Part shown: piece after piece, positions 3,823 through 32,837 of the stretch
Numbering within the stretch: the first letter of the stretch is position 1
Layout of the letters: each line of letters begins with the position of its first letter
Translations under genes and position numbers: made by a program
DNA from: a virus
Taxonomy: Duplodnaviria > Heunggongvirae > Uroviricota > Caudoviricetes
IMG/VR virus record: IMGVR_UViG_646564533_000012
DNA length: 35,548 nt
Reading direction: 5' to 3' (one strand)
Notes under the pieces: generated by a model
Seen by the model: only the letters and a program-made list of their open reading frames with translations
What the model was told of the DNA's origin: nothing
Databases searched by the model: none

Positions 3823-3845
3823 GGTTACTGGACAAAGGGGGTGCA

Positions 3846-4049
3846 ATGGCAATTAAGCATTTTCCCGTCGTTCGCTTTACCTCCAGAGGGCGCGAATACG
3901 AGGTCGACGAACGCCTGATTACCACTATCGACAAACATCGTTCGGAAAAGGATGCACACCACATCTACCTCACTGACGGCACTTACTTCTGCGCCACCAA
4001 CGTGGCGCGGGTGAATCTTATCCGACAGGTACAGGAGCCACGCAGATGA
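3846..4049 (+). CDS. hypothetical early protein
   Basis: 67-aa ORF, start/stop overlap with the next ORF. Confidence 0.45.
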   Translation: MAIKHFPVVRFTSRGREYEVDERLITTIDKHRSEKDAHHIYLTDGTYFCATNVARVNLIRQVQEPRR

Positions 4050-9496: not shown

Positions 9497-9500
9497 ACCA

Positions 9501-9812
9501 ATGACGACACCAACCAGACGGATAAGTTTCTATCTGAAGCCCGCCGCCGTCAAGAACGAAGGCGAAGCATGCACCTGGCTGGACAGCCTTACACCAGAAG
9601 CCCGCAAAAGCGGCCAACGTGTGGCTTTTCTGGCCGGGCTGGCACTTCTGAAAATGAATCCGGCAGAGGCTTACCGACTGGCTGCATGGGCTGACGATGA
9701 GGCGTTATCAGTGACACAAACCAGGACAGAACGCCCCGCGTCACAGCCAGTACCAACCTCACAGATAACCAGTCGGATGGCCGGAAATATCAGGGCGTTA
9801 TTTCCCGAATAA
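9501..9812 (+). CDS. parR: ParR/StbB-like centromere-binding adaptor
   Basis: Track ORF trimmed to the Met behind AAGGAG (MTTPTRRISFYLKP...); ISFYLKP, WLDSL, AFLAGLAL and NIRALFPE align with R1 ParR; immediately downstream of parM. Confidence 0.78.
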   Translation: MTTPTRRISFYLKPAAVKNEGEACTWLDSLTPEARKSGQRVAFLAGLALLKMNPAEAYRLAAWADDEALSVTQTRTERPASQPVPTSQITSRMAGNIRALFPE

Positions 9813-19894: not shown

Positions 19895-20472
19895 GCGCAG
19901 AACTCATGCGACTGCTGAGCAACATCATCCGCACCGGGATCATCTCTGAAGTTGATGAGGAATCCTGGTGCGTGCGCGTTCGCAGCGGCGAACTGGAAAC
20001 AGGCTGGTTGCGCTGGAACACCACGCGCGCGGGAGCCTTCAATGTGTGGCTGCCGCCATCACCAGGCGAACAGGTGGCAATTGCCTGCATCGGCGGCAAC
20101 CCGGAAACCGCCATGATAATCGGCAGCCTGTGGAGTGATGCCATTCCGGCACCCGGCAAAAGCCTGAAAGAAATCGTGGTCAGCGCGCCGGACGGCGCGG
20201 TGTTCCGCTACGACGCAGACGCTGGCGCACTGAGCGCCAGCGGCATGAAAACAGCCACCCTGCAGGCATCCGTCAGCGTGACACTGGATACGCCCGTCGT
20301 GGAATGCACAGACCTTCTGAGAACAGCGACGCTTGACGTCACAAAAGGGGGAAAGATGAGCGGCAATATCACGCACAGCGGCGGCGATTTCACCTCAAAC
20401 GGCATCACAGTGCATACGCATAAGCACGGTGGCGTTAAAGGTGGCAGCGATTCGACAGGAGGCCCGCAGTGA
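19891..20472 (+). CDS. V: baseplate spike protein V
   Basis: 193 aa with GTG start overlapping the S stop; position and size as P2 gpV. Confidence 0.88.
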   Translation: MSAELMRLLSNIIRTGIISEVDEESWCVRVRSGELETGWLRWNTTRAGAFNVWLPPSPGEQVAIACIGGNPETAMIIGSLWSDAIPAPGKSLKEIVVSAPDGAVFRYDADAGALSASGMKTATLQASVSVTLDTPVVECTDLLRTATLDVTKGGKMSGNITHSGGDFTSNGITVHTHKHGGVKGGSDSTGGPQ

Positions 20473-20819
20473 CAACCCGCTACACAGGAATGAACCCGGA
20501 CGGAACGGGAAACCTGAACGATATGGAGCACCTGAAACAGTCAGTCAGGGACATCCTGACCACCCCGCTGGCCAGCCGGGTTATGCGACGGGAATATGGC
20601 AGCCTTGTGCCTGATTTGATTGACGAACCCATGAATAACACCACGCGTCTGCAATGCATGAGTGCTGCCGTGATTGCGCTGACACGATGGGAACCCCGCA
20701 TTGCCCTGGATGCCATCGACGTTGTCTGGAAAGCGGGAGGCCGCGCCGGGGTGACGCTGTCGGGCACTGTCATGCAGACCATGCAGAATGTTGAGTTAAC
20801 CATCACGCTGAGGGAGTAA
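20469..20819 (+). CDS. W: baseplate wedge protein W (gp25-like)
   Basis: 116 aa, size and position as P2 gpW. Confidence 0.88.
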   Translation: MTTRYTGMNPDGTGNLNDMEHLKQSVRDILTTPLASRVMRREYGSLVPDLIDEPMNNTTRLQCMSAAVIALTRWEPRIALDAIDVVWKAGGRAGVTLSGTVMQTMQNVELTITLRE

Positions 20820-20822
20820 ATC

Positions 20823-21719
20823 ATGCCCGCCGTTGACCTTTCCCAGTTACCGGAACCCGCCATCATCGCGGAGCCTGACTTTGAGGCAATTCTGGCTGAC
20901 ACAAAGGCCATGATGATTGCGGCTTATCCCGCCGAACAGCGTGAAGCCGTCTCCGCCGCGCTGGAGCTGGAATCGGAACCCCTGAACGTTATCGCCCAGA
21001 CAACAGCGTTTCGTGAAATGCTGTTACGCCAGCGGGTCAATGAGGGGGCACGCGCCTGCATGTTAAGCCACAGCGCCGGGACAGACCTGGACAACCTCGC
21101 GGGCAATATGAACACAAAGCGCCTGACCATCACTCCGGCAACGGATACCACCGACGCAGTGATGGAAAGTGACACCTCGCTGAGACTGCGGGCGCAGCGG
21201 GCGTACGATGGCCTGAGTGTTGCTGGCCCGTCAGGTGCATACGAGTATTTTGCCCGCAGCGCCAGCGGTCTGGTGCGTGATGCGCGGGCTATCAGTCCGT
21301 CTCCGGCAAATGTGACGGTTTCCATCCTGTCCACTGAAGGCGACGGCACAGCAACGGAGGCGTTGCTTAATACCGTTCGCGCCGTTCTGAATGCAGAGGA
21401 TACCCGCCCGGTGGCCGACCGCCTTACTGTACAGAGCGCCAGAATCGTGACATGGCGGCTGAATGCAAAACTGTACTTTTACCCCGGCCCGGAATCCGAA
21501 CCTATTCTGGCGGCGGCTGAATCGTCGTTCAGGAAGTGGCTGGCTGAGCAGGGGCTTATCGGTCAGGACGTGGCGTTGTCCGCCATTGCTGCCGCACTGC
21601 ATGTGCACGGTGTGCAACGCGTGGAGATAATCGAACCCACACAGAATATGGCCATCAGCGACATACAGGCGGCGCGCTGTGAGTCGTTCACCATCAGCGA
21701 AGGTGGACGCAATGAGTAA
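20823..21719 (+). CDS. J: baseplate assembly protein J
   Basis: 298 aa, size and position as P2 gpJ. Confidence 0.88.
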   Translation: MPAVDLSQLPEPAIIAEPDFEAILADTKAMMIAAYPAEQREAVSAALELESEPLNVIAQTTAFREMLLRQRVNEGARACMLSHSAGTDLDNLAGNMNTKRLTITPATDTTDAVMESDTSLRLRAQRAYDGLSVAGPSGAYEYFARSASGLVRDARAISPSPANVTVSILSTEGDGTATEALLNTVRAVLNAEDTRPVADRLTVQSARIVTWRLNAKLYFYPGPESEPILAAAESSFRKWLAEQGLIGQDVALSAIAAALHVHGVQRVEIIEPTQNMAISDIQAARCESFTISEGGRNE

Positions 21720-22320
21720 TTCGTTGTTACCACCATCAGCCAGCAATTTCATGCGTTGTGCCGAAGCCGTCGGAACACGCATTACAGACATTCCGGTAGA
21801 CCTCAACACGCTGTGGTCGCCGGACACCTGCCCGGTGCATCTGCTGCCTTATCTCGCCTGGGCGTTTTCCGTTGACCGCTGGGATCGCAACTGGCCGGAA
21901 GAGACAAAGCGACAGGTGATTCGTGATGCCTGGCTGATACACCGACACAAAGGGACCATCAGCGCACTGCGAAGAGCCGTGGAGCCTCTCGGCTACCTGA
22001 TTGAAGTAAAGGAGTGGTGGCAACTCAACGAGGAGCCAGGAACATTTCGCATTGTTGTCGGAGTACTTGATCAGGGCATCACCGATGAAATGTATCAGGA
22101 ACTTGAGCGCCTTATTGCGGATGCAAAACCAGTAAGTCGCCATCTGACGGGGCTGGCGATCAGCCTGAGTGTGAACGGAAAGATTTTCGTTGGTACGGGA
22201 TGCTATCACGGCGATGCCCTGACGGTTTATCCCTACACCCCGGAGTCCATTATTGTCGAAGGGGATTATTTCCCTGCCCCAGCCATTCATTTAATTGATA
22301 ATCTGAGAGTAAACGCATGA
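21712..22320 (+). CDS. I: baseplate / tail protein I
   Basis: Track ORF trimmed to MSNSLLPP, overlapping the J stop. Confidence 0.82.
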   Translation: MSNSLLPPSASNFMRCAEAVGTRITDIPVDLNTLWSPDTCPVHLLPYLAWAFSVDRWDRNWPEETKRQVIRDAWLIHRHKGTISALRRAVEPLGYLIEVKEWWQLNEEPGTFRIVVGVLDQGITDEMYQELERLIADAKPVSRHLTGLAISLSVNGKIFVGTGCYHGDALTVYPYTPESIIVEGDYFPAPAIHLIDNLRVNA

Positions 22321-23672
22321 CAGTGAAATACTACGCCATTCTGACTAATCAGGGCGCGGCACGACTGGCTAACGCGACGATGCTCGGCAGTAAGCTGAAT
22401 CTGACGCAAATGGCCGTTGGTGATGCAAATGGTGTGTTACCAACACCAGACCCTGCACAAACAAAACTGATTAACCAGAAACGCATTGCACCGCTGAATC
22501 TTCTGAGTGTTGACCCTAACAATCAGAGCCAGATTATTGCGGAGCAAATCATCCCTGAAAACGAGGGAGGATTCTGGATCCGTGAGATTGGTCTTTATGA
22601 TGATGAAGGTGTACTCATTGCGGTGGCAAACTGCCCGGAAACGTACAAACCGCAGTTGCAGGAAGGCAGTGGACGCACCCAGACTATCCGCATGATTCTG
22701 GTTGTCACGAACACCGAAGCCATCACGCTGAAAATCGACCCGTCTGTGGTTCTGGCAACCCGCAAATATGTGGATGACAAAATCTCAGAGCACGAACAGT
22801 CACGACGTCACCCGGACGCCTCGCTGACCGCAAAAGGTTTTACTCAGTTAAGCAGTGCAATTAACAGTGAATCAGAAACACTGGCCGCAACACCGAAAGC
22901 GGTTAAGGCTGCATATGACCTGGCTAACGCGAAATATACTGCCCAGAACGCCACCACAACACAAAAAGGGATTGTTCAGCTCAGTAGCGCCACGAACAGC
23001 ACGTCTGAAACGCTGGCAGCGACACCAAAAGCTGTTAAGGTGGTAATGGATGAAACGAACAAGAAAGCACCATTAAACAGCCCGGCACTGACCGGAACGC
23101 CAACAACACCAACAGCGCCACAGGGGACTAATAATACCCAGATCGCAAGCACAGCTTTCGTTATGGCCGCGATTGCCGCACTTGTAGATTCGTCACCTGA
23201 TGCACTGAACACGCTGAACGAACTGGCTGCGGCGCTGGGCAATGACCCGAATTTTGCGACCACCATGACTAACGCGCTTGCGGGTAAGCAACCGAAGGAT
23301 GCCACCCTGACGGCGCTGGCGGAGCTTGCTACATCAGCAGATAAACTCCCATATTTTACAGGGGCAGATCGTGCCGCGTTAACCGCGTTGACAAGTGTTG
23401 GACGTGCCATTCTTGGTAAAACCAGCACTCAGGGCGTTCTTGATTACCTTGGTTTGGGGGAAGGCTCTGCGCTGCCCGTTGGTGTGCCCGTTCCATGGCC
23501 CTCAGCCACGCTGCCAACGGGGTGGCTGAAATGTAACGGCGCAGCATTTTCTTCTGAAATGTACCCCAATCTGGCAAAGGCCTACCCCACCAATAAATTA
23601 CCGGATTTACGGGGAGAATTTATTCGTGGCTGGGATGATGGACGCGGTGTGGACATGGGAGAGCATTATTAA
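22317..23672 (+). CDS. H: tail fiber protein H (constant N-terminal part fused to a frameshift-truncated C-terminal cassette)
   Basis: Conserved N-terminus MTVKYYAILTNQGAARLANA; internal SETLAATPKAVK repeats; enters the shared cassette block GLGEGSALPVGVPVPWP at 23451, then terminates early (…GVDMGEHY). Confidence 0.88.
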   Translation: MTVKYYAILTNQGAARLANATMLGSKLNLTQMAVGDANGVLPTPDPAQTKLINQKRIAPLNLLSVDPNNQSQIIAEQIIPENEGGFWIREIGLYDDEGVLIAVANCPETYKPQLQEGSGRTQTIRMILVVTNTEAITLKIDPSVVLATRKYVDDKISEHEQSRRHPDASLTAKGFTQLSSAINSESETLAATPKAVKAAYDLANAKYTAQNATTTQKGIVQLSSATNSTSETLAATPKAVKVVMDETNKKAPLNSPALTGTPTTPTAPQGTNNTQIASTAFVMAAIAALVDSSPDALNTLNELAAALGNDPNFATTMTNALAGKQPKDATLTALAELATSADKLPYFTGADRAALTALTSVGRAILGKTSTQGVLDYLGLGEGSALPVGVPVPWPSATLPTGWLKCNGAAFSSEMYPNLAKAYPTNKLPDLRGEFIRGWDDGRGVDMGEHY

Positions 23673-23881
23673 GCAGCCAAGAGGCTACAAATTTTTCTCA
23701 GCGTGCCGGAAATATAGGCGATGGTGCGGGCCACGCAATTAATTTTCATGATGGCATAGTCGGAAATCAGCCAGGATTTTCACGATTTAATTTCACCAGT
23801 AACTCTGTAGGCGATGGTATAAATTTTGTTGCTGTCAGGCCGCGAAATATCGCATTTAATTACATCGTAAGGGCAGCATGA
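23673..23881 (+). pseudogene. out-of-frame remainder of the H-attached tail-fiber cassette (type E copy)
   Basis: Downstream sequence encodes the rest of the cassette (…IAFNYIVRAA) in another frame; matches the intact inverted copy at 25969..26400 except for one A missing in GACAATGGG. Confidence 0.6.
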
Positions 23882-23888
23882 AAACGTT

Positions 23889-24395
23889 GGTTTGGGGGAA
23901 GGCTCGGCGCTGCCCGTTGGTGTGCCCGTTCCATGGCCTTCAGCCACGCCGCCAACGGGGTGGCTGAAATGTAACGGTGCAGCATTTTCTTCTGAAATGT
24001 ACCCCAATCTGGCAAAGGCCTACCCCGCCAATAAATTACCGGATTTACGGGGAGAATTTATTCGCGGCTGGGATGATGGGCGCGGGGTGGATGCTGGCCG
24101 CGCTTTGCTTAATTGGCAGCCACACACAATTTTGGATCATGCACACTATATGGAATTATGGACCGGGGATGGACTTGCCGCGGGAAGTACACGGGAAGGA
24201 GTAAACCCTGGAATACTGGCTACATACGGGGACGGGGGAATAGTTAAAACAGACGAACCCGGTTTAAAGGTGCCTTCCTCACTACGAGCCATTAGCTCTC
24301 GTAATGTAAAACGGTTTGGTGAAATTAGTGGAAATGTAGGTACAGAAACTCGCCCTCGCAACGTTGCATTTAATTACATCGTAAGAGCCGCATGA
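23889..24395 (+). CDS. alternative tail-fiber C-terminal cassette B (promoterless in this orientation)
   Basis: Begins with the shared block GLGEGSALPVGVPVPWPSATPPTGWLKCNGAAF, unique middle, shared C-terminus ETRPRN.AFNYIVRAA. Confidence 0.7.
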   Translation, partial: GLGEGSALPVGVPVPWPSATPPTGWLKCNGAAFSSEMYPNLAKAYPANKLPDLRGEFIRGWDDGRGVDAGRALLNWQPHTILDHAHYMELWTGDGLAAGSTREGVNPGILATYGDGGIVKTDEPGLKVPSSLRAISSRNVKRFGEISGNVGTETRPRNVAFNYIVRAA

Positions 24396-24402
24396 AAACG
24401 TT

Positions 24403-24882
24403 GGTTTAGGAGAAGGTTCTGCACTGCCCGTTGGTGTGCCCGTTCCGTGGCCCTTAGCAACACCACCAACGGGCTGGCTGAAATGTAACGGTGCAGCATT
24501 TTCTTCTGAAATGTACCCCAAACTGGCAAAAGCCTACCCCACCAATAAATTACCAGACTTACGCGGTGAATTTATCCGTGGCTGGGATGATGGGCGAGGA
24601 ATTGATGCGGCACGCGCTTTATTGAGCATTCAAAACGGGATGTTGGAAAAACACCGCCATATTGTTGTAGCTAACGATGGATATGACACAAAAGATGAAT
24701 GGGAGTTGGCTACGATTTTCAAAAAAACATATACACAAGGCAGGGGGCTTGATGCCACAAATACAGGAGGGAGTTTGATTCCATCACCAACGCTTCATTC
24801 ACGAGGAAGTATTGGTAACACAGGTGGTAGTGAAACCCGCCCCCGCAATATTGCATTTAACTATATCGTGAGGGCGGCTTAG
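24403..24882 (+). CDS. alternative tail-fiber C-terminal cassette C
   Basis: Same shared N-terminal block and C-terminal tail with a distinct, AT-richer variable middle. Confidence 0.7.
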   Translation, partial: GLGEGSALPVGVPVPWPLATPPTGWLKCNGAAFSSEMYPKLAKAYPTNKLPDLRGEFIRGWDDGRGIDAARALLSIQNGMLEKHRHIVVANDGYDTKDEWELATIFKKTYTQGRGLDATNTGGSLIPSPTLHSRGSIGNTGGSETRPRNIAFNYIVRAA

Positions 24883-24888
24883 TTATAT

Positions 24889-25500
24889 TCAACTGGCTGC
24901 TGCCAGTGGTATTTCCGGCAAGTTGATATCTGGTGCCATGTTTATATCCATTGCGTTCAGCGCGTCTATATAATCCAGCACGGCATTAAGCCGGGTGGTT
25001 TCTGCCTGCGTCAACTTCCGCCCGGCCTGCAACTTCAACTGAATCAGACTTATGGAAGCCATTGCCGCATCAGCCAGTGACTGGCGCTTGGTTTCTGCCG
25101 CTTCTACTGCGGCACGATGTTGTGCCTCAGTATCTGTCACCCATTTTTCACCATCCCATTTATCGTATGGTGTGAACGGGGCGATAGTGGTTGTATTTTT
25201 CGGGTAGTCACCCAGCGCCGTGATTTCTTCGGTGTTTCCCGTGTCAGTGCTATAGACGGTTTCACCACGATGGTCTGGCGCATACTCCCATGAACTTAAA
25301 TTCTCCGAACGGCGGATAGCATAGCCCGCTTTATGTGCGCCCGGGGCATCTAAACAGGAATTTGCCGGAATACCGACACCCACAGCAAGATATTCAGTTG
25401 ATTCGGAAATATATTCCCGTGTCTCACCATCATAGTTATAAACGACGATGTTTCCTGCCTGTACGGCAATAAGGTCATCATTTAATATCGCGTTATTCAT
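24889..25500 (-). CDS. tail fiber assembly chaperone (Tfa / gpG-like)
   Basis: 203 aa, convergent with cassettes B and C and directly downstream of cassette D on the minus strand; typical Tfa-type sequence. Confidence 0.8.
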   Translation of the reverse strand: MNNAILNDDLIAVQAGNIVVYNYDGETREYISESTEYLAVGVGIPANSCLDAPGAHKAGYAIRRSENLSSWEYAPDHRGETVYSTDTGNTEEITALGDYPKNTTTIAPFTPYDKWDGEKWVTDTEAQHRAAVEAAETKRQSLADAAMASISLIQLKLQAGRKLTQAETTRLNAVLDYIDALNAMDINMAPDINLPEIPLAAAS

Positions 25501-25958
25501 TATGCGGTTCTCACAATATAATTGAAGGCAATATTGCGTGGGCGGGCTTCATTCCCCCCTGAGGATTCCGTTCTGTATTGACTGGTAAATCTACCGTTAA
25601 TTGCACCTTGCCGGACGGCGTTATCTGTCGACAACAGACTATCCCCTCCTTTGTCATTTGGCACCAGTACCGTGTTATCCCACGCGTCCCATGACCGAAT
25701 ATTATGATAATGACTTCCTGTTAACCACCCCTGCATGCTTAAGATGCCCCTTCCGGCATCCACCCCGCGCCCATCATCCCAGCCACGGATAAATTCACCG
25801 CGTAAGTCTGGTAATTTATTGGTGGGGTAAGCCATTGCCAGTCTGGGATACATTTCAGAAGAAAATGCTGCGCCGTTACATTTCAGCCACCCCGTTGGCG
25901 GCGTGGCTGAGGGCCATGGAACAGGTACACCAACAGGCAGTGCAGAGCCTTCCCCCAA
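25500..25958 (-). CDS. alternative tail-fiber C-terminal cassette D
   Basis: Shared N-terminal block on the minus strand, unique middle, shared C-terminus; stop overlaps the tfa start. Confidence 0.7.
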   Translation of the reverse strand: MGEGSALPVGVPVPWPSATPPTGWLKCNGAAFSSEMYPRLAMAYPTNKLPDLRGEFIRGWDDGRGVDAGRGILSMQGWLTGSHYHNIRSWDAWDNTVLVPNDKGGDSLLSTDNAVRQGAINGRFTSQYRTESSGGNEARPRNIAFNYIVRTA

Positions 25959-25968
25959 ACCAACGTTT

Positions 25969-26454
25969 TCATGCTGCCCTTACGATGTAATTAAATGCGA
26001 TATTTCGCGGCCTGACAGCAACAAAATTTATACCATCGCCTACAGAGTTACTGGTGAAATTAAATCGTGAAAATCCTGGCTGATTTCCGACTATGCCATC
26101 ATGAAAATTAATTGCGTGGCCCGCACCATCGCCTATATTTCCGGCACGCTGAGAAAAATTTGTAGCCTCTTGGCTGCTTAATAATGCTCTCCCATTGTCC
26201 ACACCACGTCCATCATCCCAGCCACGAATAAATTCGCCCCGTAAATCCGGTAATTTATTGGTGGGGTAGGCCTTTGCCAGATTGGGGTACATTTCAGAAG
26301 AAAATGCTGCGCCGTTACATTTCAGCCACCCCGTTGGCAGCGTGGCTGAGGGCCATGGAACGGGCACACCAACGGGCAGCGCAGAGCCTTCCCCCAAACC
26401 AACGTTTTCGTCTTTATCCCTACCTATACCAACTATGTATTTTTCACGAAACAA
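25969..26454 (-). CDS. alternative tail-fiber C-terminal cassette E (intact copy of the cassette fused to H)
   Basis: Shared block starts at 26400; the track ORF extends upstream to 26454 (MFREKYIVGIGRDKDENV); sequence equals the H-attached cassette apart from the 1-nt indel. Confidence 0.7.
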   Translation of the reverse strand: MFREKYIVGIGRDKDENVGLGEGSALPVGVPVPWPSATLPTGWLKCNGAAFSSEMYPNLAKAYPTNKLPDLRGEFIRGWDDGRGVDNGRALLSSQEATNFSQRAGNIGDGAGHAINFHDGIVGNQPGFSRFNFTSNSVGDGINFVAVRPRNIAFNYIVRAA

Positions 26455-26468
26455 AGAGGATGTTTTTT

Positions 26469-27068
26469 ATGCAAATTGGCTATATTCGTGTGTCAACAAA
26501 TGACCAGAACACGGATTTACAACGCAATGCACTGAACTGCGCAGGATGTGAACTGATTTTTGAAGATAAAATCAGCGGAACGAAATCAGCCAGACCGGGA
26601 TTGAAAAAACTGCTCAGAACGCTATCAGAAGGAGATACGCTGGTTGTCTGGAAGCTGGACAGACTGGGCAGAAGTATGAAACACCTGATCACGCTTATTG
26701 AGGAATTGCGGGAAAAAGGTGTTAATTTCCGTAGTCTGACGGACAGCATTGACACATCAACACCCATGGGGCGTTTCTTTTTTCACGTCATGGGGGCTTT
26801 AGCCGAAATGGAACGTGAATTAATTGTAGAGCGTACACTGGCCGGGCTGGCAGCAGCACGCGCACAAGGACGCATTGGCGGACGTCGCCCGAAGTTGACA
26901 AAAGAACAACACGAGCAAATAGCGAGGCTGATTAAAAACGGTCATGACAGGAAACAACTGGCGATCATTTACGACATCGGCATATCGACGATTTATCGTT
27001 ATCACCCTGTAGGCGATATACAGGCTGAAGAAACAACCAGGCAGACTCAGGAAAATGAAAACCGCTAA
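26469..27068 (+). CDS. serine recombinase DNA invertase (Hin/Gin/Cin/Pin family)
   Basis: MQIGYIRVSTNDQNTDLQRNAL...VVWKLDRLGRSMKHLI...MGRFFFHVMGALAEMERELI is near-identical in pattern to Hin/Gin; start behind AGAGGA. Confidence 0.92.
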   Translation: MQIGYIRVSTNDQNTDLQRNALNCAGCELIFEDKISGTKSARPGLKKLLRTLSEGDTLVVWKLDRLGRSMKHLITLIEELREKGVNFRSLTDSIDTSTPMGRFFFHVMGALAEMERELIVERTLAGLAAARAQGRIGGRRPKLTKEQHEQIARLIKNGHDRKQLAIIYDIGISTIYRYHPVGDIQAEETTRQTQENENR

Positions 27069-27090
27069 TCTGACCATTAGCGGTTTTGCG
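27062..27090 (+). terminator. terminator hairpin at the invertase / U convergent junction
   Basis: CCGCTAAT-N6-ATTAGCGG followed by TTTTG; a second GTTTTG-N7-CAAAAC dyad follows; coordinates approx. Confidence 0.4.
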
Positions 27091-27094
27091 TTAA

Positions 27095-27589
27095 TCAAAA
27101 CAGCCCTTTAACGGAGCTGGCCGCGCTGTTAAGGGATGATGTGACCTTGTCTTTGAAGCCGGACAGCATATCACTGAACGATGAGGATTGCAGGCGCTCC
27201 CGCAAATCCTCATCACAGCGTTCAAGAGTCAGTGAAAATTCTATCTTTTTCGCCTTACCGTAGCGATCAAACTCGGAGCGGGTCGTATTCGTTCCGGTCA
27301 GGACATACATGCCGTAAATCTGCCCGACACCATCAATCAGAGGCCAGGGGCGTCCTGTATATGCCTGCGTGGTCAGCAACGAAAGCGACACTTCGCCACC
27401 TGTAATTTCAGGATAAAGCACGCCGGAAAGCACGATGCGATCATCACCTGCACCGATATACTGCCAGCTTGCTGAACGGTTAACACGTTCATTTTTCACA
27501 TGCCGCCAGCTTTTGTTTTGCTGTAACTGCTGATGCGGCAGTGTGCGCAGCTCAAAAACAAACATGCCGTAGATCATCATCATGACCAT
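27095..27589 (-). CDS. U: tail protein U
   Basis: 164 aa; conserved LSGVLYPEITGG and WPLIDG.G.IYGMYV as in P2 gpU. Confidence 0.85.
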   Translation of the reverse strand: MVMMMIYGMFVFELRTLPHQQLQQNKSWRHVKNERVNRSASWQYIGAGDDRIVLSGVLYPEITGGEVSLSLLTTQAYTGRPWPLIDGVGQIYGMYVLTGTNTTRSEFDRYGKAKKIEFSLTLERCDEDLRERLQSSSFSDMLSGFKDKVTSSLNSAASSVKGLF

Positions 27590-27595
27590 GACTCC

Positions 27596-30412
27596 TCAAT
27601 CTTTATCGTAAAAACTGCCACGTCCGGCACGGGCGCGCCGTTCCATCTCTGCCCTGACCATTTCACCGACCAGTTTCGCCAGTTCGCGGGGATTCTGCGT
27701 AACAACGTTATGCAGATGAACATGAATTTCACCGCCAAATCCGGAGGCAACAGGCTCCCGGTTACGGGAAGTTACAGGAACTGATGCCACTGGAGATCGT
27801 ATGGCCTCCGCCACCGGGCGGGAGCTGGCCGCAACAACAGGGACCAGCGCCGGAGGCAGCGGAGCCGGGACCACGGGTGTGATATTAATTGCGGGGGCAG
27901 GCTTACTGACCTGCGCAATCTTCCGCTCCTGCCACTCCCCACGAACAGCAAGTGCGCGGGGCAGGTTCTTAAAGACAATATCGCCGGGGCCAATGCGTTT
28001 TTTCGTCTCATCAACCAGCTTACCTGTGTTATCAGCAATTTTGCTGAGTCTGCGTAGCGTCCCGGTATTGCTGTCTGTGAGCGGTTTGTTGTCTTTGGGT
28101 TTATCACCTCCGGTGCCATTGCCATTTTCCACAGGCTTCGGCGGATTGATTTTCGCAAGGTCCCCCTGAAGCAAGGCAACCTTGTCCTGAAGAATGGCCG
28201 CACGCTGTGCGTCTTCGATTTTCTTGCGCGCCCTTTCCGCTTCATCCGGAAGGACGCCAAGTTTTTCAAGTATCCACGCCAGCGTATCCAGTAGCATTTT
28301 TGCAGGTGTCAGAACAAGCTGTAACGCACCGCCAAGAACGTTACCGAATATCTCGCCAGCACTGGTACATTTATCCAGCGTTTCCTTGCTGGACTCCATC
28401 GGTGACAGCAGCGATTTAAACCAGTTAAACACCTGGCTGATCCCGCTTCCGATTGCGTCAAAAACAGGACCAAACCGTTCAAAGGTTTCGCGCAACGGGG
28501 TCAGCCTTTCCATAATCCCGCTGAACACCCCGGCAAAAAATGCCCTGATGGGATCCCAGTATTTCCAGATAAGAACGGCAGCTCCGGCAAGCGCAGCCAC
28601 GATAAGACCAACCGGACTGAACAGCGCCCCGATAGCGCCTCCCAGTAAAGAAACGGAACCCGTCACCATTCCCCACAGCGCAGGCAACACCCTGACGACA
28701 TTCATTGACCGGGTAAGAATGTCAAAACCAAGACGCAGGGTGGCCAGCTTCCCGTAAAGCACCCCAATAACCAGCGACAACGAGCCAATCGTTGCAGTCA
28801 TTGCCAGCAACGCACCGCCTGCTATCAGTAGCTGGCGCGTCAGTACCGGATGGGCCTGCGCCAGCGAGGTGATTTTTTCAAGCACCCGCGTGAGCCACTG
28901 CGTGACAGAACGCAGCGGACCGTCAACCAGATCACTGATGCGAATACGAAGACCTTCCCATGCGCTGTCGAGATTTTTCAGGTCCCCATCAAGATTATCG
29001 GCCATTACTTTTGCGACGCGATCGGCCTCTCCCCTTGCCCCCTGCAATTCTCTGGTCAGTTTTTGCAGCTCTCCTGAACCAGCCGCCGCAACAAGCGTCT
29101 GCAAACCAACGAACGCCTCTTCTCCGGCGATGTCCTTGAAGAAGGAAACCTGGTCCACCTGTCCGTATTTTTGTGTCGCCTTATAGAGATCAAGCAGCAC
29201 ATCCTCCATCGGGCGCATTTTGCCTCTGGCGTCAGCAACTGACACCCCCAGCTCTTTCAGTGCATCAGCCGCAGCTTTTGGCGGTGATGCAAGGCGGGAC
29301 AGACTTGCGCGCATGGCCGTACCAGCATCGCTTCCGCGAAGACCATTATTGGCAAGCATCCCGGCCATGGCCGCCGCTTCTTCAAGACTGATACCAAGTT
29401 TTGCGGCAACCGGACCGGTATACTTCATGGTTTCGCCCAGCGCGCGTAAATCAGTATTGGTCCGGGTGAATGCCGCTGTCAGCGTATCGCCAACACGGTC
29501 CATTTGATCGGCTGTCAGGTTGAACTGTGTGAGGATATTGGAGCCTATATCAGCCGTCTCGCCGAGTTCGACGCCACCTGCCAGCGCCATATTAAGAACA
29601 CCGGGCAATGCGGCCTGAATGGCCTGCGGAGTAAAACCAGCCATTGCCAGAAAGCTCTGCCCACTGGCGGCATCACTCGCAGTAAACTGTGTTTCAGAGC
29701 CAAGTTTTAACGCCTGCTCACGCAGCGCCTTAAACTGCGGGCTGTTTTTGTCGATTCGCGTCAGTGCCTGAACGCGGGACATCTCTTTGCCGAACCCGAT
29801 CGCAGGCTGCAAAAAACGCCCGGCAGCATAGCCGCCCGCCGCTGCCGCACCAATTGCCAGCGCACCACCTGTTTTCAGTTTCCCCGCGGTTTCCTGCGCG
29901 CGCGAATACCGCTCACGCGCCCGCGTTACACGCGCAAGCGCCTGCCGTTCGCGTTCAAGCTGGTTGTTGTACTGTTCGGTGCGTCTGATGGCCTGCTGGA
30001 TGGTGTTATCGCTGCCTGTCAGGGAAATGCCGTGTCGTTTCAGTTCTCCGCCAAGTTCCCGCATTTTCTGAATTTCCCGTGTGCGCGATTCATTCAGGCG
30101 TTCAAGCCGGGTGCTTAACTGCTGCATCAGCTTTTGTTGTTTTTCGCTGAGCACTGTACCCGTGCGTTGTAACTGATTAAGGGCGTTAAGCTGGCGTCGT
30201 GCTTTCACGATGCCCGCATCCGCTTTACTGACAGCGTCACGGGCGCGCTCAAATGAACGCGCCTGACGCTCGAGATTTTTGATCGCCCCCTGCGTTCGCT
30301 GGATGGAGTCACCAAACTGCCCCATCAGGCGGCGGGCGTTTTCGGCAGGCCGGGTCAGCCTGTCAACGGCGCTGAAAGCGACCCGGATATCAAGAGTCTT
30401 CATTGTCTGCAT
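27596..30412 (-). CDS. T: tail tape measure protein T
   Basis: About 940 aa, helical N-terminal half and Gly/Ala-rich hydrophobic core typical of tape measure proteins; start trimmed to MQTMKTL after the E' stop. Confidence 0.9.
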   Translation of the reverse strand: MQTMKTLDIRVAFSAVDRLTRPAENARRLMGQFGDSIQRTQGAIKNLERQARSFERARDAVSKADAGIVKARRQLNALNQLQRTGTVLSEKQQKLMQQLSTRLERLNESRTREIQKMRELGGELKRHGISLTGSDNTIQQAIRRTEQYNNQLERERQALARVTRARERYSRAQETAGKLKTGGALAIGAAAAGGYAAGRFLQPAIGFGKEMSRVQALTRIDKNSPQFKALREQALKLGSETQFTASDAASGQSFLAMAGFTPQAIQAALPGVLNMALAGGVELGETADIGSNILTQFNLTADQMDRVGDTLTAAFTRTNTDLRALGETMKYTGPVAAKLGISLEEAAAMAGMLANNGLRGSDAGTAMRASLSRLASPPKAAADALKELGVSVADARGKMRPMEDVLLDLYKATQKYGQVDQVSFFKDIAGEEAFVGLQTLVAAAGSGELQKLTRELQGARGEADRVAKVMADNLDGDLKNLDSAWEGLRIRISDLVDGPLRSVTQWLTRVLEKITSLAQAHPVLTRQLLIAGGALLAMTATIGSLSLVIGVLYGKLATLRLGFDILTRSMNVVRVLPALWGMVTGSVSLLGGAIGALFSPVGLIVAALAGAAVLIWKYWDPIRAFFAGVFSGIMERLTPLRETFERFGPVFDAIGSGISQVFNWFKSLLSPMESSKETLDKCTSAGEIFGNVLGGALQLVLTPAKMLLDTLAWILEKLGVLPDEAERARKKIEDAQRAAILQDKVALLQGDLAKINPPKPVENGNGTGGDKPKDNKPLTDSNTGTLRRLSKIADNTGKLVDETKKRIGPGDIVFKNLPRALAVRGEWQERKIAQVSKPAPAINITPVVPAPLPPALVPVVAASSRPVAEAIRSPVASVPVTSRNREPVASGFGGEIHVHLHNVVTQNPRELAKLVGEMVRAEMERRARAGRGSFYDKD

Positions 30413-30928
30413 TCCCGCTGCGAAGTGCCGCCCGCTCACGCCAGCTAACCACTTCGCCGGGCGTCATCATGAAGATTTCGGCGGGCGACCAGTTAAAAAT
30501 GGCGGCGATATCTGCCACCAGATCTTCGATGTGCTCAAAGCACACCAGGGTGATTACGCTGCCGTCTCCTGCACGCTCTTCGCGCCAGAGTCTGGCTCGC
30601 TCATAAAATTTACAGCCACAGCGCACAACTGAATAAAATCGCGTGACGACATTTTTTTAATCATCACTTCATCCAGTCGTGGCGAGGTCACGCGAGGCAA
30701 CAGCGTGAACATGGTATCCGCTTTCAGATTCAGCACATCAGACAGCGACAGACCACGCAGGGATCCAGCCTGTTCAATAGCCCCGGTGATCTCCACATAC
30801 GTGATTTTTTCGCCACCACGCTCAATTGGTCGGGTCAGTTTTACGCCACGTTCGACAGCCATATCCTCACCTGCCGTCACATCATCCGCCACGGTGTTAT
30901 TCCGGGTTTCAGTATCGATGTCTTTCAT
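30390..30928 (-). CDS. tail assembly chaperone E+E' (-1 programmed frameshift product)
   Basis: Seven-A run at approx 30653..30659 on the coding strand (ATT AAA AAA ATG); the -1 frame continues as the 30390..30626 track ORF; analogous to P2 E/E+E' and lambda G/GT. Confidence 0.65.
30554..30928 (-). CDS. E: tail assembly chaperone E
   Basis: 124-aa ORF between FII and T; contains the A7 slippery run. Confidence 0.8.
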   Translation of the reverse strand: MKDIDTETRNNTVADDVTAGEDMAVERGVKLTRPIERGGEKITYVEITGAIEQAGSLRGLSLSDVLNLKADTMFTLLPRVTSPRLDEVMIKKMSSRDFIQLCAVAVNFMSEPDSGAKSVQETAA

Positions 30929-30983
30929 CAGTTGTCTCCTTTTCAGTCAGAGGCGACGCACTGCGCCGCCTGCATATTACTTA

Positions 30984-31496
30984 TCAGCCAAGCCCAAGCG
31001 CGGAACGGATACGGTCAGGCACAATGTCCTTGCCGTCCTTCCGGTAAATGAAGTTCAGCAGGTCAATCTCCCACAGCGGGCGATCGTTAACGCTCAGCTT
31101 GTAGTAGGTGTTTTTAATGGCGTAAGAGTGTGATGTGGCTTCGCCCTGTTTGGCTTCCCCCATATCAATTTCCGTCACACGTCCGCGCATTTCGACTTCA
31201 TACAGGTCGCTTTCTGCATCGGTGTAGTATTCACCCGCAAAACGCAGCAGCGTGCCGTCAATCGTGCCGCCATACTTAAGGAACAGCTCACGAACTGCGC
31301 CCCCCATGACAAAGCTCGCATCAAGCGCGGAGTCGTCCAGACCGAGATCAATACTTACCGCACCCATCATGCCACCACCCCGGTAGCTGTCGGTTTTGCG
31401 CGTCAGCTTAGGCAGAGTGACGGACGTCACCTTACCCACTTCGTTTTCACCATCCACAAACAGCGTAAAAAAGCGAAGATGTTTTGGCACAGCCAT
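30984..31496 (-). CDS. FII: tail tube protein FII
   Basis: 170 aa, size and position as P2 FII. Confidence 0.9.
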   Translation of the reverse strand: MAVPKHLRFFTLFVDGENEVGKVTSVTLPKLTRKTDSYRGGGMMGAVSIDLGLDDSALDASFVMGGAVRELFLKYGGTIDGTLLRFAGEYYTDAESDLYEVEMRGRVTEIDMGEAKQGEATSHSYAIKNTYYKLSVNDRPLWEIDLLNFIYRKDGKDIVPDRIRSALGLG

Positions 31497-32680
31497 CAGG
31501 CACCTCCCAGCACCGCAAATGCGGGTTCAAAGTATTCATCAGTAAACGTCTGGTAAAGCTCCATATCTTCCAGCGGGGGAACAGGCGTATATTTGTAGCG
31601 AATACGCACACGCCCCTGACGTAAATCCGTGGTGCTGTTATCCACCACGTCATACCAGCACTCCGCGCCAATCAGTTTCCCGGCAGTAACCAGTGAATCC
31701 AGTTTTGCCCTGATGGCACTGATAACATCCTTCACGTTCGCAGGCGTCAGTGGACTGTCGATGGTTTCAAACTGCGCTTCCGCAATTGAATCAGCCAACA
31801 CCTGTGCGGTTCGGGTATACACCTCAAAGATGTAGGCGTTCGTTTCCGGTGTGCGGTTGCCCCAGAAGCGGAACCCGTTGCGACGAATAATGGTCGTGAT
31901 TTCTTTGTTGTTGAGGCTGTTGGCATCACTGTCTTCGGCCTGCAACGACCAGAACACATGCCTGGACATCCCCAGCACATTTTTAACCGGAACGTTGGAC
32001 AGCGATTTGTGCCAGCCCTGTTCATGGTCAATGTACGCACGGAGGCCGCACGCATAGGCAGGCGCGGGGAACGTTTCGTTTTTGCCACTTTTGGGGTTGT
32101 AGGCGATGAAGTCCGGCCATAAGAGCATCACCTCACGTTCGTTGAATTTCTGGCGGTAGGTAATCGCCTCAGCCATCGTGTTACAGCCGTGACATGAGGC
32201 ATACACAAACGCGCGCAGTTTACCTGCAATCACGCACAGGGATTTTGTTACAGCCTCCGTGTCCAGCTCCGGCGCGGCCAGAATACGCGGACGGTATCCG
32301 ATGCTTTCATCCTGCTCTGCAACAAGCAGCGCATACATCCCCGTATAGCTGCCGTCATCCTCAGAACCACCGATAACCAGTTGATCCTGCGTCTTTCCGT
32401 CTTCTTCTTTGTGTTCAGCCACGCGAACGACGATCACCTTTGTGCTCACCTGGTCTGCAATGGCCTTAAGCGCACGATAAAGCGTCCCCGTTGTCCCGCA
32501 TTTTCCCAGCACGTCATTGACGCGGATCAGCAGTGTGGGCTTGTTCAGCGGGAACAGCTTCGCGTCCGCATCATCCGCCGTTGCCACGATACCGATAACG
32601 CTGGAATCAACATCGTTAATCGCTGTTACCAGGTCGGTATTTTCCGTAACACGGGCACCATGAAAACGAGTTTCACTCAT
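31496..32680 (-). CDS. FI: tail sheath protein FI
   Basis: 394 aa, size and position as P2 FI. Confidence 0.92.
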   Translation of the reverse strand: MSETRFHGARVTENTDLVTAINDVDSSVIGIVATADDADAKLFPLNKPTLLIRVNDVLGKCGTTGTLYRALKAIADQVSTKVIVVRVAEHKEEDGKTQDQLVIGGSEDDGSYTGMYALLVAEQDESIGYRPRILAAPELDTEAVTKSLCVIAGKLRAFVYASCHGCNTMAEAITYRQKFNEREVMLLWPDFIAYNPKSGKNETFPAPAYACGLRAYIDHEQGWHKSLSNVPVKNVLGMSRHVFWSLQAEDSDANSLNNKEITTIIRRNGFRFWGNRTPETNAYIFEVYTRTAQVLADSIAEAQFETIDSPLTPANVKDVISAIRAKLDSLVTAGKLIGAECWYDVVDNSTTDLRQGRVRIRYKYTPVPPLEDMELYQTFTDEYFEPAFAVLGGA

Positions 32681-32837
32681 AGCTTCAGCCCCTTGTATCC
32701 GTTAAATGATTCGGCAACAATCATCACCCACCACGCGCGTAATCTCACCCCTGCGCCGTTCTCCCGACCCGGCGACAACAAAAAGCAGTAACCCCCTCCG
32801 CACGCACATGCGACCATGCCGCACAGGGAGGGAACAG
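32681..32837. promoter_or_regulatory. divergent promoter region between FI (leftward) and D (rightward)
   Basis: 157-bp gap between two divergent starts; promoters inferred from arrangement only. Confidence 0.3.

What the first reader, a model, noticed from the sequence alone, without database searches (positions are those of the whole stretch)
23445..27068. Five-site multiple-inversion tail-fiber locus with one chaperone gene
Five copies of a crossover-like site, each followed by the same ~200-bp tail-fiber block and a different variable C-terminal domain, are arranged three forward and two reverse beside a Hin/Gin-family invertase. Only one Tfa gene exists, downstream of cassette D on the minus strand, so in the present orientation H has no co-oriented chaperone. 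Inversion between the H site and the D site would create H-D plus tfa. The locus appears captured in a non-productive configuration of a host-range switch.
Basis: partly seen in the sequence, partly recalled or inferred. Interest (0 to 1): 0.6.

Follow-up and report, generated by a model that had tools for sequence, protein, structure and literature searches.

The report
Five-site invertible phage tail-fibre switch
This is a real multi-site DNA-inversion switch that lets a P2-like E. coli prophage swap the tip of its tail fibre, but it belongs to a common family whose inversion has already been shown experimentally, and it is unusual only because the copy now fused to the fibre gene is broken by a one-base deletion.

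Summary
Five 26-bp Hin-type crossover sites (three forward, two reverse; 0 expected by chance) each precede a ~210-bp Collar-domain block and a variable tip. They lie beside one Tfa gene and an intact Gin-like invertase.

One detail is wrong. Cassette 1, fused to H, is not a different domain. It is an inverted duplicate of cassette 5 with two substitutions and a 1-nt deletion, so H stops at 451 aa.

The window is E. coli O55:H7 CB9615. The same prophage in strains EC43 and EcE.CRE.COL (flanks ≥99.94% identical) carries the cassettes in other orders. More than 20 related loci follow one layout: H | forward cassettes | [C→ ←tfa ←D] | reverse cassettes | invertase.

The 3-site homologue in EPEC E2348/69 inverts in culture (Goldberg 2014). 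Two E2348/69 assemblies are inversion isomers, one being H–D+tfa.

The present state is non-productive because of the frameshift, not because tfa is reversed. Tfa is reversed in 14 of 21 natural loci. Cassette C can never be co-oriented with tfa yet is under strong purifying selection (pN/pS 0.04).

Verdict: a new member of a known kind. The open question is how one chaperone serves many tips.

The parts
22317..23448 (+). Constant 5' part of tail-fibre gene H, up to the crossover core of s1. The present ORF runs to 23672 (451 aa) and is truncated.
   Evidence: Pfam Phage_tail_fib (E 1.6e-62), Phage_fiber_2 and Collar. The ORF is listed. The exact 451-aa protein is ADD56710.1, named 'DNA inversion product' in CB9615, and occurs on one contig only.
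23437..23462 (+). Crossover site s1 inside H: TTCTTGATTACC TT GGTTTGGGGGAA
   Evidence: Site s1 of the E2348/69 homologue maps to NC_011601.1 position 1891695, the inversion endpoint in Goldberg 2014 Table S1.
23451..23881 (+). Cassette 1 (E*): a Collar block plus an E-type tip. It carries a 1-nt deletion at 23655 and substitutions at 23615 and 23645. It is an inverted duplicate of cassette 5.
   Evidence: Pairwise alignment to cassette 5. The deletion is unique among ~17 E-type copies in other genomes.
23875..23900 (+). Crossover site s2: AGCATGAAAACG TT GGTTTGGGGGAA. The stop codon of cassette 1 lies in its left half.
23889..24395 (+). Cassette 2 (B-type tip, silent).
   Evidence: Collar domain E 7.4e-14. 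The B type is found fused to H in EC43, L013, L016 and L024.
24389..24414 (+). Crossover site s3: CGCATGAAAACG TT GGTTTAGGAGAA
24403..24882 (+). Cassette 3 (C-type tip, silent). It is convergent with tfa, with the two stop codons separated by 6 nt.
   Evidence: C is always adjacent to and convergent with tfa in all relatives. pN/pS is 0.04.
24889..25500 (-). The single tail-fibre assembly (chaperone) gene tfa. Its ATG overlaps the stop of cassette D (ATAATG).
   Evidence: Caudo_TAP E 3.1e-31. It is the only tblastn hit in the window. The exact protein is found on 249 contigs.
25500..25961 (-). Cassette 4 (D-type tip), directly upstream of tfa. C, tfa and D together form the core unit bounded by s3 and s4.
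   Evidence: The D cassette matches PDB short-tail-fibre chain 9cuy_c (E 2.4e-18) and the T4 gp37 and gp12 collar regions.
25950..25975 (-). Crossover site s4 (minus strand): AGCATGAAAACG TT GGTTTGGGGGAA
25969..26400 (-). Cassette 5 (E-type tip, intact).
   Evidence: In-silico s1xs5 gives a 521-aa H-E. Natural intact 521-aa H-E fusions occur in strains 23CRST001 and 19AR0253.
26389..26414 (-). Outer crossover site s5 (minus strand): AAGACGAAAACG TT GGTTTGGGGGAA
26469..27068 (+). Serine DNA invertase of the Hin/Gin/Cin/Pin/Min ('Din') group, 199 aa.
   Evidence: Resolvase E 1.5e-51 plus HTH_7. Gin structures 4M6F/3UJ3 match at E ~1e-91, with 74% identity and Ser9 kept. It differs from the E2348/69 enzyme by one residue (E197K). 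The exact protein is found on at least 1000 contigs.

Best explanation
The locus is a Min-type (shufflon-like) multiple-inversion switch of a P2-like prophage of E. coli O55:H7 CB9615.

Mechanism:
- A Gin-like serine invertase recombines any forward site (s1-s3) with any reverse site (s4, s5) at the shared TT core.
- The layout is fixed as [H const..L][R-cassette-L]n [R-C> <tfa <D-R'] [L'-cassette'-R']m [L'..invertase]. Every permitted inversion therefore flips the central C-tfa-D unit and moves cassettes from one side to the other.
- The cassette that ends up next to s1 is fused in frame to H and supplies the receptor-binding tip: a Collar domain, a ~60-95-aa variable insert and the conserved end RPRNIAFNYIVRAA.
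- With three simple cassettes plus the core unit, 48 arrangements are reachable.

The sequenced state has H fused to a frameshifted copy (E*) of the E cassette, so it should make a truncated, non-functional fibre. A single inversion restores an intact H-D followed by tfa (s1xs4) or an intact H-E (s1xs5).

The inverted E*/E duplicate is best explained by an unequal exchange between two sister copies that were in different isomeric states. Isomer [E,B|M|] crossed at its last site with isomer [|M'|B',E'] at the B'/E' site, which yields exactly [E,B|M|E'].

What is shown and what is inferred:
- Shown here: the anatomy, the reading-frame outcomes, the natural isomers and an intact invertase.
- Shown by others on the 3-site homologue: inversion in culture.
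- Inferred: that this particular copy inverts, that tips change host range, and the origin of the duplicate.
For: - Sites, blocks and orientation.
- Domain content.
- In-silico inversions restore ORFs of 531 and 521 aa.
- There are 48 reachable states and every step flips the core unit.
- The same prophage has differently arranged interiors. Flanks 1-23449 and 26403-end are 99.94-99.99% identical to EC43 and EcE.CRE.COL. Their interiors read H|B,F,G,D,tfa+,C-,E*- and H|G,C,tfa-,D-,E-,E-,B-.
- More than 20 loci carrying the identical Tfa or invertase all obey the layout. Several are pure permutations of {B,C,D,E,F,G}.
- Experimental inversion was shown at the homologous E2348/69 locus. Goldberg 2014 (PMC4272514) Table S1 gives coordinates 1891695-1893703 and 1892127-1893703, which are the L002 sites. 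Four variants coexisted by PCR.
- E2348/69 assemblies NC_011601.1 and NZ_CP059840.2 are s1xs3 isomers of each other.
- EC958 Phi2, a smaller member of the family, switched in PacBio reads (PMC4134206).
- The invertase differs by one residue from the E2348/69 enzyme.
- Inverted or direct cassette duplicates also occur in L006, L022 and L027.
Against: - No read-level data exist for this strain, so inversion at this copy is inferred from relatives.
- Block haplotypes are re-assorted relative to the variable parts between genomes. Part of the rearrangement history therefore went through homologous recombination or gene conversion inside the 210-bp blocks, not only through the 26-bp sites.
- A crude scan found no clean pair of Fis-like sites 48 bp apart in the 5' part of the invertase gene (inconclusive).
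- The E* frameshift and the E*/E duplication occur in this one assembly only. They could be consensus artefacts from a mixed-isomer template.
Confidence: 0.85

Rival explanations
1. The locus is a working switch caught in a dead state because the only chaperone gene points the wrong way. Only isomers with tfa co-oriented with H, ideally H-D+tfa, are productive.
For: - Across species the ancestral unit is a Collar-type tip directly followed by a Tfa of this family: Hn+ c+ tfa+ in Kluyvera, Erwinia and Pantoea.
- N3 and N6 tips have their own adjacent Tfa in L020 and L026.
- A strong terminator-like hairpin at 27058-27087 argues against read-through from the minus-strand tail operon into tfa.
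- No sigma-70-like promoter was found upstream of tfa on the minus strand.
Against: - Cassette C can never be co-oriented with tfa, yet it is intact in nearly all loci with pN/pS 0.04.
- B, E, F and G also have pN/pS of 0.04-0.25.
- Tfa is anti-oriented in 14 of 21 natural loci.
- In E2348/69 cultures about 90% of cells stay in the tfa-reversed state.
- The actual defect in this state is the frameshift in H.
Confidence: 0.2
2. The E*/E inverted duplication and the 1-nt deletion are assembly or consensus artefacts of sequencing a mixed population of isomers. The true locus would have four sites, cassettes E, B and C-tfa-D, and an intact H-E.
For: - Every junction in the window arrangement also exists in some isomer of a 4-site {E,B,M} locus (my derivation).
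- Forde 2014 explicitly warns that mixed isomers cause artefactual duplications in phage regions (PMC4134206).
- The arrangement and the 451-aa H occur in this assembly only.
- No complete RefSeq E. coli genome reproduces it.
Against: - The two copies differ at three positions within 42 nt. A single physical cassette read in two orientations should give identical copies.
- CB9615 was Sanger-sequenced, with repeats verified by PCR and sequencing (PMC2806823).
- Cassette duplicates, direct and inverted, recur in independent assemblies L006, L022 and L027.
Confidence: 0.17
3. Rearrangement here is driven mainly by RecA-type homologous recombination between the 210-440-bp inverted blocks. The invertase and the 26-bp sites would be dispensable or decayed.
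For: - Block haplotypes are re-assorted relative to the variable parts. Haplotype h4 sits on D in the window and EC43 but on E in EcE. Haplotype h5 sits on C in EC43 but on D in EcE. EcE's B block is an h4/h2 mosaic.
- The inverted repeats are long and 85-99% identical.
Against: - All five sites keep the 12-TT-12 architecture exactly at the cassette boundaries.
- The invertase is intact, differs by one residue from the enzyme of a locus that switches within single-colony cultures at 10-50% levels, and the identical protein sits on at least 1000 contigs.
- Permutations among relatives always respect site boundaries.
Confidence: 0.06
4. The locus is a decaying relic in a domesticated or defective prophage. 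The cassettes are no longer used, and the frameshift is one sign of erosion.
For: - Frameshifted or truncated cassettes are frequent in relatives (L004, L005, L008, L018, L019, L022, L023, L024).
- Tfa is split by an IS element in 23CRST001.
- Late-control gene D is annotated as shortened with a pseudogene fragment in the identical prophages.
Against: - The prophage has a full P2-type gene set.
- Intact alleles of all cassette types show purifying selection.
- The invertase, Tfa and sites are intact.
Confidence: 0.1

Closest known systems
Three-repeat 'shufflon' in the P2-like prophage of EPEC E2348/69 (Goldberg et al. 2014, Genome Med, PMC4272514)
   Same: It is a direct homologue. It has the same site sequences, the same Collar blocks, the same C-tfa-D core unit and an invertase that differs by one residue. 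The published inversion endpoints coincide with the sites. Four variants coexist in culture.
   Different: It has three sites and four states, against five sites and 48 states here. Its tip A2 is intact, with no duplicated cassette and no frameshift.
Min multiple-inversion system of plasmid p15B (Sandmeier, Iida, Arber 1990-1992); the description is from my own knowledge because the papers are not held
   Same: It uses a Din-family serine invertase, six crossover sites, overlapping invertible segments, a constant 5' tail-fibre gene part joined to alternative 3' parts, and hundreds of isomers. A P1-like plasmid examined here (L027) has the same cassette family, one tfa and an invertase 180/190 identical to the window's.
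   Different: The host replicon is a P1-like plasmid prophage, not a chromosomal P2-like prophage. I could not align the original p15B sequence (X62121), so orthology to Min itself is inferred from P1-like relatives.
Two-site invertible segments: Mu G/Gin, P1 C/Cin, e14 P/Pin, Salmonella Hin
   Same: The enzyme family is the same (74% identity to Gin). The sites are 26 bp with a 2-bp core (consensus quoted in PMC4134206). The logic of swapping the tail-fibre 3' end is the same.
   Different: Those systems have two sites, two states and one chaperone gene per alternative tip (S-U / S'-U'). Here several tips share or lack a chaperone, and tfa orientation flips with every event.
EC958 prophage Phi2 tail-fibre switch (Forde et al. 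2014, PMC4134206)
   Same: The sites are of the same type (…ATTACCTT GGTTTAGGAGAA) inside a 227-bp inverted repeat, the invertible 3' part carries a Collar domain, and switching was seen in PacBio reads. The locus has one tfa adjacent to a D-like cassette.
   Different: It has fewer cassettes and a more divergent invertase (86%) and Tfa (58%).
R64 shufflon (Rci / pilV); from my own knowledge, and cited as the analogy by Goldberg 2014
   Same: It has multiple inverted sites, a constant 5' gene part with alternative 3' ends, and generates many isomers.
   Different: It uses a tyrosine recombinase, different sites, and a conjugative-pilus adhesin rather than a phage fibre. It is analogous, not homologous.

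Membership tests
Din (Hin/Gin/Cin/Pin/Min) serine DNA invertases | Small serine recombinase (~185-200 aa) with an N-terminal resolvase catalytic domain, the catalytic Ser at position 9/10, and a C-terminal HTH | tested here: met
   The protein is 199 aa. PF00239 matches at E 1.5e-51 and PF02796 at 1.4e-12. 'GYIRVSTNDQ' aligns with Gin Ser9, with 74% identity to Gin over residues 1-185.
Din (Hin/Gin/Cin/Pin/Min) serine DNA invertases | 26-bp imperfectly dyad-symmetric crossover sites with a 2-bp core that is identical in partner sites, arranged as inverted repeats | tested here: met
   There are five sites of 12+TT+12. The right halves read GGTTT(G/A)GG(G/A)GAA and the left halves …(A/T)(A/T)AC(C/G). 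Three are forward and two reverse. They match the Sandmeier consensus as quoted in PMC4134206.
Din (Hin/Gin/Cin/Pin/Min) serine DNA invertases | Fis-dependent recombinational enhancer in cis, in the 5' part of the invertase gene | tested here: inconclusive
   A crude scan for two Fis-like 15-mers about 48 bp apart in 26400-26800 found no clean pair. The motif is too degenerate to decide, and function is not testable in silico.
Din (Hin/Gin/Cin/Pin/Min) serine DNA invertases | Catalyses inversion between its sites | not testable with these tools
   Indirect evidence only. The enzyme differs by one residue from the E2348/69 enzyme, whose locus inverts in culture. Natural isomers of the same prophage exist.
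Multiple-inversion (Min-type) tail-fibre systems | More than two crossover sites giving overlapping invertible segments | tested here: met
   Five sites give six permitted pairings and 48 reachable arrangements.
Multiple-inversion (Min-type) tail-fibre systems | A constant 5' gene part that becomes fused in frame to alternative 3' cassettes | tested here: met
   In-silico s1xs4 gives 531 aa and s1xs5 gives 521 aa, both in frame. Natural H-B, H-C, H-D, H-E, H-F and H-G fusions exist in relatives.
Multiple-inversion (Min-type) tail-fibre systems | Coexistence of several isomers in a clonal population of this strain | not testable with these tools
   Reads from CB9615 are needed. This was shown only for the E2348/69 and EC958 relatives.
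Tail-fibre assembly proteins (Caudo_TAP; P2 gpG / Mu gpU / lambda Tfa) | A ~200-aa protein with a variable N-terminal fibre-binding domain and a conserved C-terminal helical domain, encoded directly downstream of the fibre tip | tested here: met
   PF02413 matches at E 3.1e-31, and PF28596 Caudo_TAP_N is on record. The C-half is 77-78% identical and the N-half 32-74% identical among Tfas paired with other tips. Its start overlaps the D stop. The domain roles come from PMC9608196, citing North 2019.
Tail-fibre assembly proteins (Caudo_TAP; P2 gpG / Mu gpU / lambda Tfa) | Required for folding of the fibre tips encoded in this locus | not testable with these tools
   There is no solved homologue by sequence. 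The selection data argue only that co-orientation is not required for C.

The most novel reading that the evidence does not exclude
Every permitted inversion flips the C-tfa-D unit, so the switch controls two things at once: which tip is fused to H, and whether the single Tfa is co-transcribed. Tips B and E can each occur with tfa co-oriented or reversed, C only with it reversed, and D only with it co-oriented. Tfa proteins can stay on the fibre and bind host surfaces (stated in the title of North & Davidson 2021, as listed in PMC9608196). The same tip with and without Tfa could then give different receptor specificities, roughly doubling the repertoire. Alternatively, non-D Collar tips may fold without any Tfa. 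Either way, one chaperone gene serving up to 13 cassettes would be a design principle not described for the classical S-U / S'-U' systems.
Probability: 0.15. Interest if true: 0.55.

Novelty: new member of a known kind. Interest (0 to 1): 0.3.

Why it matters
The locus itself is ordinary for E. coli. 3,220 of 5,426 complete genomes have some match to it, and its 3-site homologue is already an experimental example of a prophage 'shufflon'. Three things are useful here.

- It gives an explicit layout rule that predicts every arrangement seen in more than 20 natural loci, and it shows that tfa orientation toggles with each inversion.
- The inverted duplicate is a concrete footprint of how cassette arrays can grow, through exchange between copies in different isomeric states.
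- It poses a clear, testable question: do Collar-type tips other than D need the Tfa, and if so, how is tfa expressed when reversed?

The answers matter for engineering phage or tailocin host range with swappable Collar-domain tips. They also matter for annotation, because the silent cassettes are routinely called as separate 'phage tail protein' genes.

Tried and rejected
- Read-through from the minus-strand tail operon (FI…U) as the source of tfa transcripts in the reversed state. Rejected as unlikely, because a 12-bp-stem bidirectional terminator-like hairpin lies at 27058-27087 between gpU and the invertase.
- An Ogr-type late promoter reading leftward from the spacer between the invertase and s5. 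A perfect TGT-N12-ACA dyad is there (26436-26453). However, the prophage's own late-promoter regions show only imperfect boxes, and no plausible -10/-35 follows the dyad. Left as unexplained.
- The Fis enhancer scan was inconclusive.
- Using the three O127:H6 assemblies as isomers. They turned out to have the same arrangement, and the different coverage was a chaining effect. A true isomer assembly of E2348/69 was found later.
- The 451-aa H in strain 19AR1321 looked like the same frameshift. It is a different 1-nt indel inside the block that happens to reach the same stop codon.
- A suspected absence of H-D fusions (0 of ~22 loci) was disproved by a targeted search, which found five one-piece matches.
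- Tfa N-domain co-variation with tip type gave mixed signals. The Tfas paired with D and N3 are 74% identical in the N-half although the tips are 28% identical, while the N6-paired Tfa is 32% identical.
- The original p15B Min papers, Johnson's review and North & Davidson 2021 are not held.
- Rfam found nothing in 22-28 kb.
- The Tfa has no solved homologue by sequence.

Full report
**What is in the sequence**

The window is a P2-like prophage. It has an integrase, portal and terminase genes, capsid genes, then V-W-J-I-H. The tail operon FI…T-U lies on the minus strand. A stretch of 9,612 nt (window 20389-30000) is 100% identical to E. coli O55:H7 CB9615, CP001846.1.

Between 23437 and 26414 there are five 26-bp sites of the form 12 nt + TT + 12 nt:

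| Site | Coordinates | Strand | Sequence |
|---|---|---|---|
| s1 | 23437-23462 | + | TTCTTGATTACC TT GGTTTGGGGGAA |
| s2 | 23875-23900 | + | AGCATGAAAACG TT GGTTTGGGGGAA |
| s3 | 24389-24414 | + | CGCATGAAAACG TT GGTTTAGGAGAA |
| s4 | 25950-25975 | − | AGCATGAAAACG TT GGTTTGGGGGAA |
| s5 | 26389-26414 | − | AAGACGAAAACG TT GGTTTGGGGGAA |

A degenerate 22-nt pattern finds exactly these five in 35.5 kb, against 0.00 expected in shuffles.

Each site is followed by a ~210-nt block that is 85-99% identical between copies. [quoted passage not shown] After it comes a variable stretch of ~60-95 codons and a conserved end, …RPRN(I/V)AFNYIVR(A/T)A. For the cassettes that are followed by another site (1, 2 and 5), the stop codon lies inside the left half of that next site.

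The window has one Tfa gene (24889-25500, minus strand). Its ATG overlaps the stop of cassette D, and its own stop lies 6 nt from the stop of cassette C on the other strand.

There is one serine invertase (26469-27068). It has Resolvase and HTH_7 domains, is 74% identical to Mu Gin and keeps Ser9.

Cassette 1, the one fused to H, is not a fifth kind of tip. It is the same E-type cassette as cassette 5, in inverted orientation. Over ~440 nt the two copies differ only at 23615, at 23645 and by a 1-nt deletion at 23655.

The deletion shifts the frame, so H ends at 23672 after 451 aa (…GVDMGEHY*). It lacks most of the tip and the conserved C-terminal strand. So there are four distinct tips (E, B, C, D).

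The exact 451-aa protein is GenBank ADD56710.1. The CB9615 annotators named it 'DNA inversion product', and it occurs on that one contig only. None of ~17 other E-type copies in other genomes has the deletion or the two substitutions. Intact 521-aa H-E fusions exist in strains 23CRST001 and 19AR0253.

**How it works**

Cutting at the TT cores in silico gives two one-step outcomes from the sequenced state:

- s1×s4 gives an in-frame 531-aa H-D with tfa immediately downstream and co-oriented.
- s1×s5 gives an intact 521-aa H-E.

Decomposing this locus and its relatives gives one layout:

[H const…L] [R-cassette-L]n [R-C→ ←tfa ←D-R′] [L′-cassette′-R′]m [L′…invertase]

L and R are the left and right half-sites. 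All cassettes left of the C-tfa-D unit are forward, and all cassettes right of it are reverse. Only forward × reverse site pairs can invert, so each inversion includes the C-tfa-D unit and flips it.

From the window's state, 48 arrangements are reachable in at most four steps. H-C is always with tfa reversed, H-D is always with tfa co-oriented, and the other tips occur in both states.

**Evidence that the switch really operates**

(a) The same prophage, at the same btuC-side insertion, is present in strains EC43 and EcE.CRE.COL. Its flanks are 99.94-99.99% identical to the window on both sides of the outer sites, but the interiors differ:

| Genome | Arrangement between H and the invertase |
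|---|---|
| Window (CB9615) | H \| E*, B, C, tfa−, D−, E− |
| EC43 | H \| B, F, G, D, tfa+, C−, E*− |
| EcE.CRE.COL | H \| G, C, tfa−, D−, E−, E−, B− |

(b) Twenty further loci were fetched through the exact Tfa or invertase protein. Apart from two classical two-chaperone loci (L020, L026) and one truncated locus (L018), they all obey the layout. They have 3 to 8 sites, and several are pure permutations of {B,C,D,E,F,G}. A P1-like plasmid has 13 cassettes, one tfa and an invertase 180/190 identical to the window's.

(c) The 3-site homologue in EPEC E2348/69 was shown by Goldberg et al. 2014 to exist as four coexisting variants in single-colony cultures (PMC4272514). Their Table S1 coordinates, 1891695-1893703 and 1892127-1893703, coincide with the sites I located in NC_011601.1. 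That invertase differs from the window's by one residue, E197K.

(d) The in-silico H-D+tfa junction is matched in one piece at 100% coverage in five complete genomes. One is a second assembly of E2348/69, NZ_CP059840.2. It reads H-D (531 aa), tfa+, C−, A2−, invertase, which is the s1×s3 isomer of the reference assembly.

(e) Forde et al. 2014 saw switching in PacBio reads at a smaller member of the family, EC958 Phi2 (PMC4134206).

**The chaperone argument**

The facts are right, but the inference is not supported.

- One tfa glued to D is the rule in all relatives.
- Among 21 loci sampled without regard to arrangement, tfa is reversed in 14 and co-oriented in 7.
- In E2348/69 cultures about 90% of cells keep the tfa-reversed state.
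- Cassette C can never be co-oriented with tfa. Yet its variable part shows pN/pS 0.04 at pS 0.21.
- The other tips have pN/pS of 0.04-0.28. The caveats are small samples, non-independent pairs and the use of intact alleles only.

So either non-D tips do not need Tfa, or tfa is expressed whatever its orientation.

Other evidence keeps the question open:

- In other species and in two-cassette loci, Collar tips normally have their own adjacent Tfa.
- According to PMC9608196, citing North et al. 2019, the variable N-domain of a Tfa binds the fibre and the conserved C-domain trimerises.
- The N-half of this Tfa is 74% identical to the N3-paired Tfa although the tips share only 28%. It is only 32% identical to the N6-paired Tfa.
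- Read-through from the tail operon is unlikely because of the hairpin at 27058-27087.
- A perfect TGT-N12-ACA dyad at 26436-26453, between s5 and the invertase ATG, is unexplained.

**Origin of the duplicate, and the role of homologous recombination**

The arrangement [E*,B | C-tfa-D | E′] is exactly what one unequal exchange would produce. Write M for the C-tfa-D unit. Sister copy [E,B|M|] crossed at its last site with sister copy [|M′|B′,E′] at the site between B′ and E′. This is my inference. Duplicated cassettes also occur in EcE.CRE.COL (two E, direct), in L022 (two A2) and in the P1-like plasmid (one cassette protein present both forward and reverse).

Block haplotypes are re-assorted relative to the variable parts between genomes, and one block is a mosaic. 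Crossovers or gene conversion inside the blocks have therefore acted alongside exchange at the sites.

**Caveats**

- The frameshift and the duplication are seen only in this assembly.
- Forde et al. warn that mixed isomers can cause artefactual duplications.
- Against an artefact, the two copies differ at three clustered positions, and CB9615 was Sanger-sequenced with repeats verified by PCR (PMC2806823).
- I put the artefact reading at about 0.17.

**Comparison with known systems, and verdict**

By enzyme, site architecture and logic this is a Din-family, Min-type multiple-inversion tail-fibre system. It is a direct homologue of the E2348/69 prophage 'shufflon' and of EC958 Phi2. It is related to the cassette arrays of P1-like plasmids. 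The link to p15B Min itself rests on my own knowledge and on P1-like relatives, because the original sequence could not be aligned.

It differs from Mu G, P1 C and e14 P in having more than two sites and a single chaperone gene.

It is a new member of a known kind. Interest is modest at 0.3. The one non-trivial open question is how one Tfa gene, which flips with every inversion, relates to up to 13 alternative tips.

Noticed in passing
window 26436-26453: A perfect TGT-N12-ACA dyad (TGTATTTTTCACGAAACA), the shape of a P2 Ogr/late-promoter box, lies in the 54-nt spacer between outer site s5 and the invertase start codon. Only five such dyads occur in the window. The prophage's own late-promoter regions have only TGT-N12-AGA.
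   Followed up: partly
window 27058-27087: A 12-bp-stem palindromic hairpin (AAAACCGCTAAT…ATTAGCGGTTTT) has T-runs on both strands and lies between the convergent invertase and gpU genes. It looks like a bidirectional terminator that insulates the inversion region from the tail operon.
   Followed up: no
window 27095-32680 (minus strand): The FI-FII-E-E'-T-U tail operon is inverted relative to the canonical P2 gene order, so it converges on the invertase. All fetched relatives share this layout.
   Followed up: no
window 23451-23660, 23889-24100, 24403-24615, 25750-25961, 26195-26400; L005, L006: The ~210-bp Collar blocks carry haplotypes that are re-assorted relative to the variable tips between otherwise identical prophages. 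For example, one haplotype sits on D here but on E in EcE.CRE.COL, and one block is a mosaic. This points to homologous recombination or gene conversion inside the blocks.
   Followed up: partly
L071 (NZ_AP045758.1) 6352-8301: In strain 23CRST001 the single tfa of the homologous locus is split by an IS4-like ISVsa5 element, while H-E (521 aa) is intact.
   Followed up: no
L027 (plasmid NZ_CP196102.1) 1-7693: A P1-like 92-kb plasmid carries the same system with 13 Collar cassettes, a single tfa and a 190-aa invertase 180/190 identical to the window's. One cassette protein (WP_072756900.1) is present in both forward and reverse orientation.
   Followed up: partly
L020 4046-5468; L026 2470-5429: The identical invertase protein also flanks classical two-alternative loci in which each tip has its own Tfa: a Gp53-like_C tip with a 146-aa Tfa, opposite a Collar tip with a ~200-aa Tfa.
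   Followed up: partly
L004 (NZ_CM127582.1) 2501-3856; L005 40053-40541: Two other genomes carry independent 1-nt frameshifts in E-type cassettes. In 19AR1321 the indel lies inside the block and by coincidence also yields a 451-aa H. In EC43 the insertion lies after …GRALL. Frameshifted silent cassettes are common in the family.
   Followed up: partly
window 8537-9812: The prophage carries ParM-like and ParR-like partition genes, as annotated in the identical prophages of EC43 and EcE.CRE.COL. This is unusual cargo for an integrated P2-like phage.
   Followed up: no
window 32681-33947: The region upstream of FI and the late-control gene D is annotated in the identical prophages as a shortened 266-aa VgrG/Pvc8-family gene plus a pseudogene fragment. 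The window has a 413-aa ORF there (32706-33947). The integrity of gene D is unclear.
   Followed up: no
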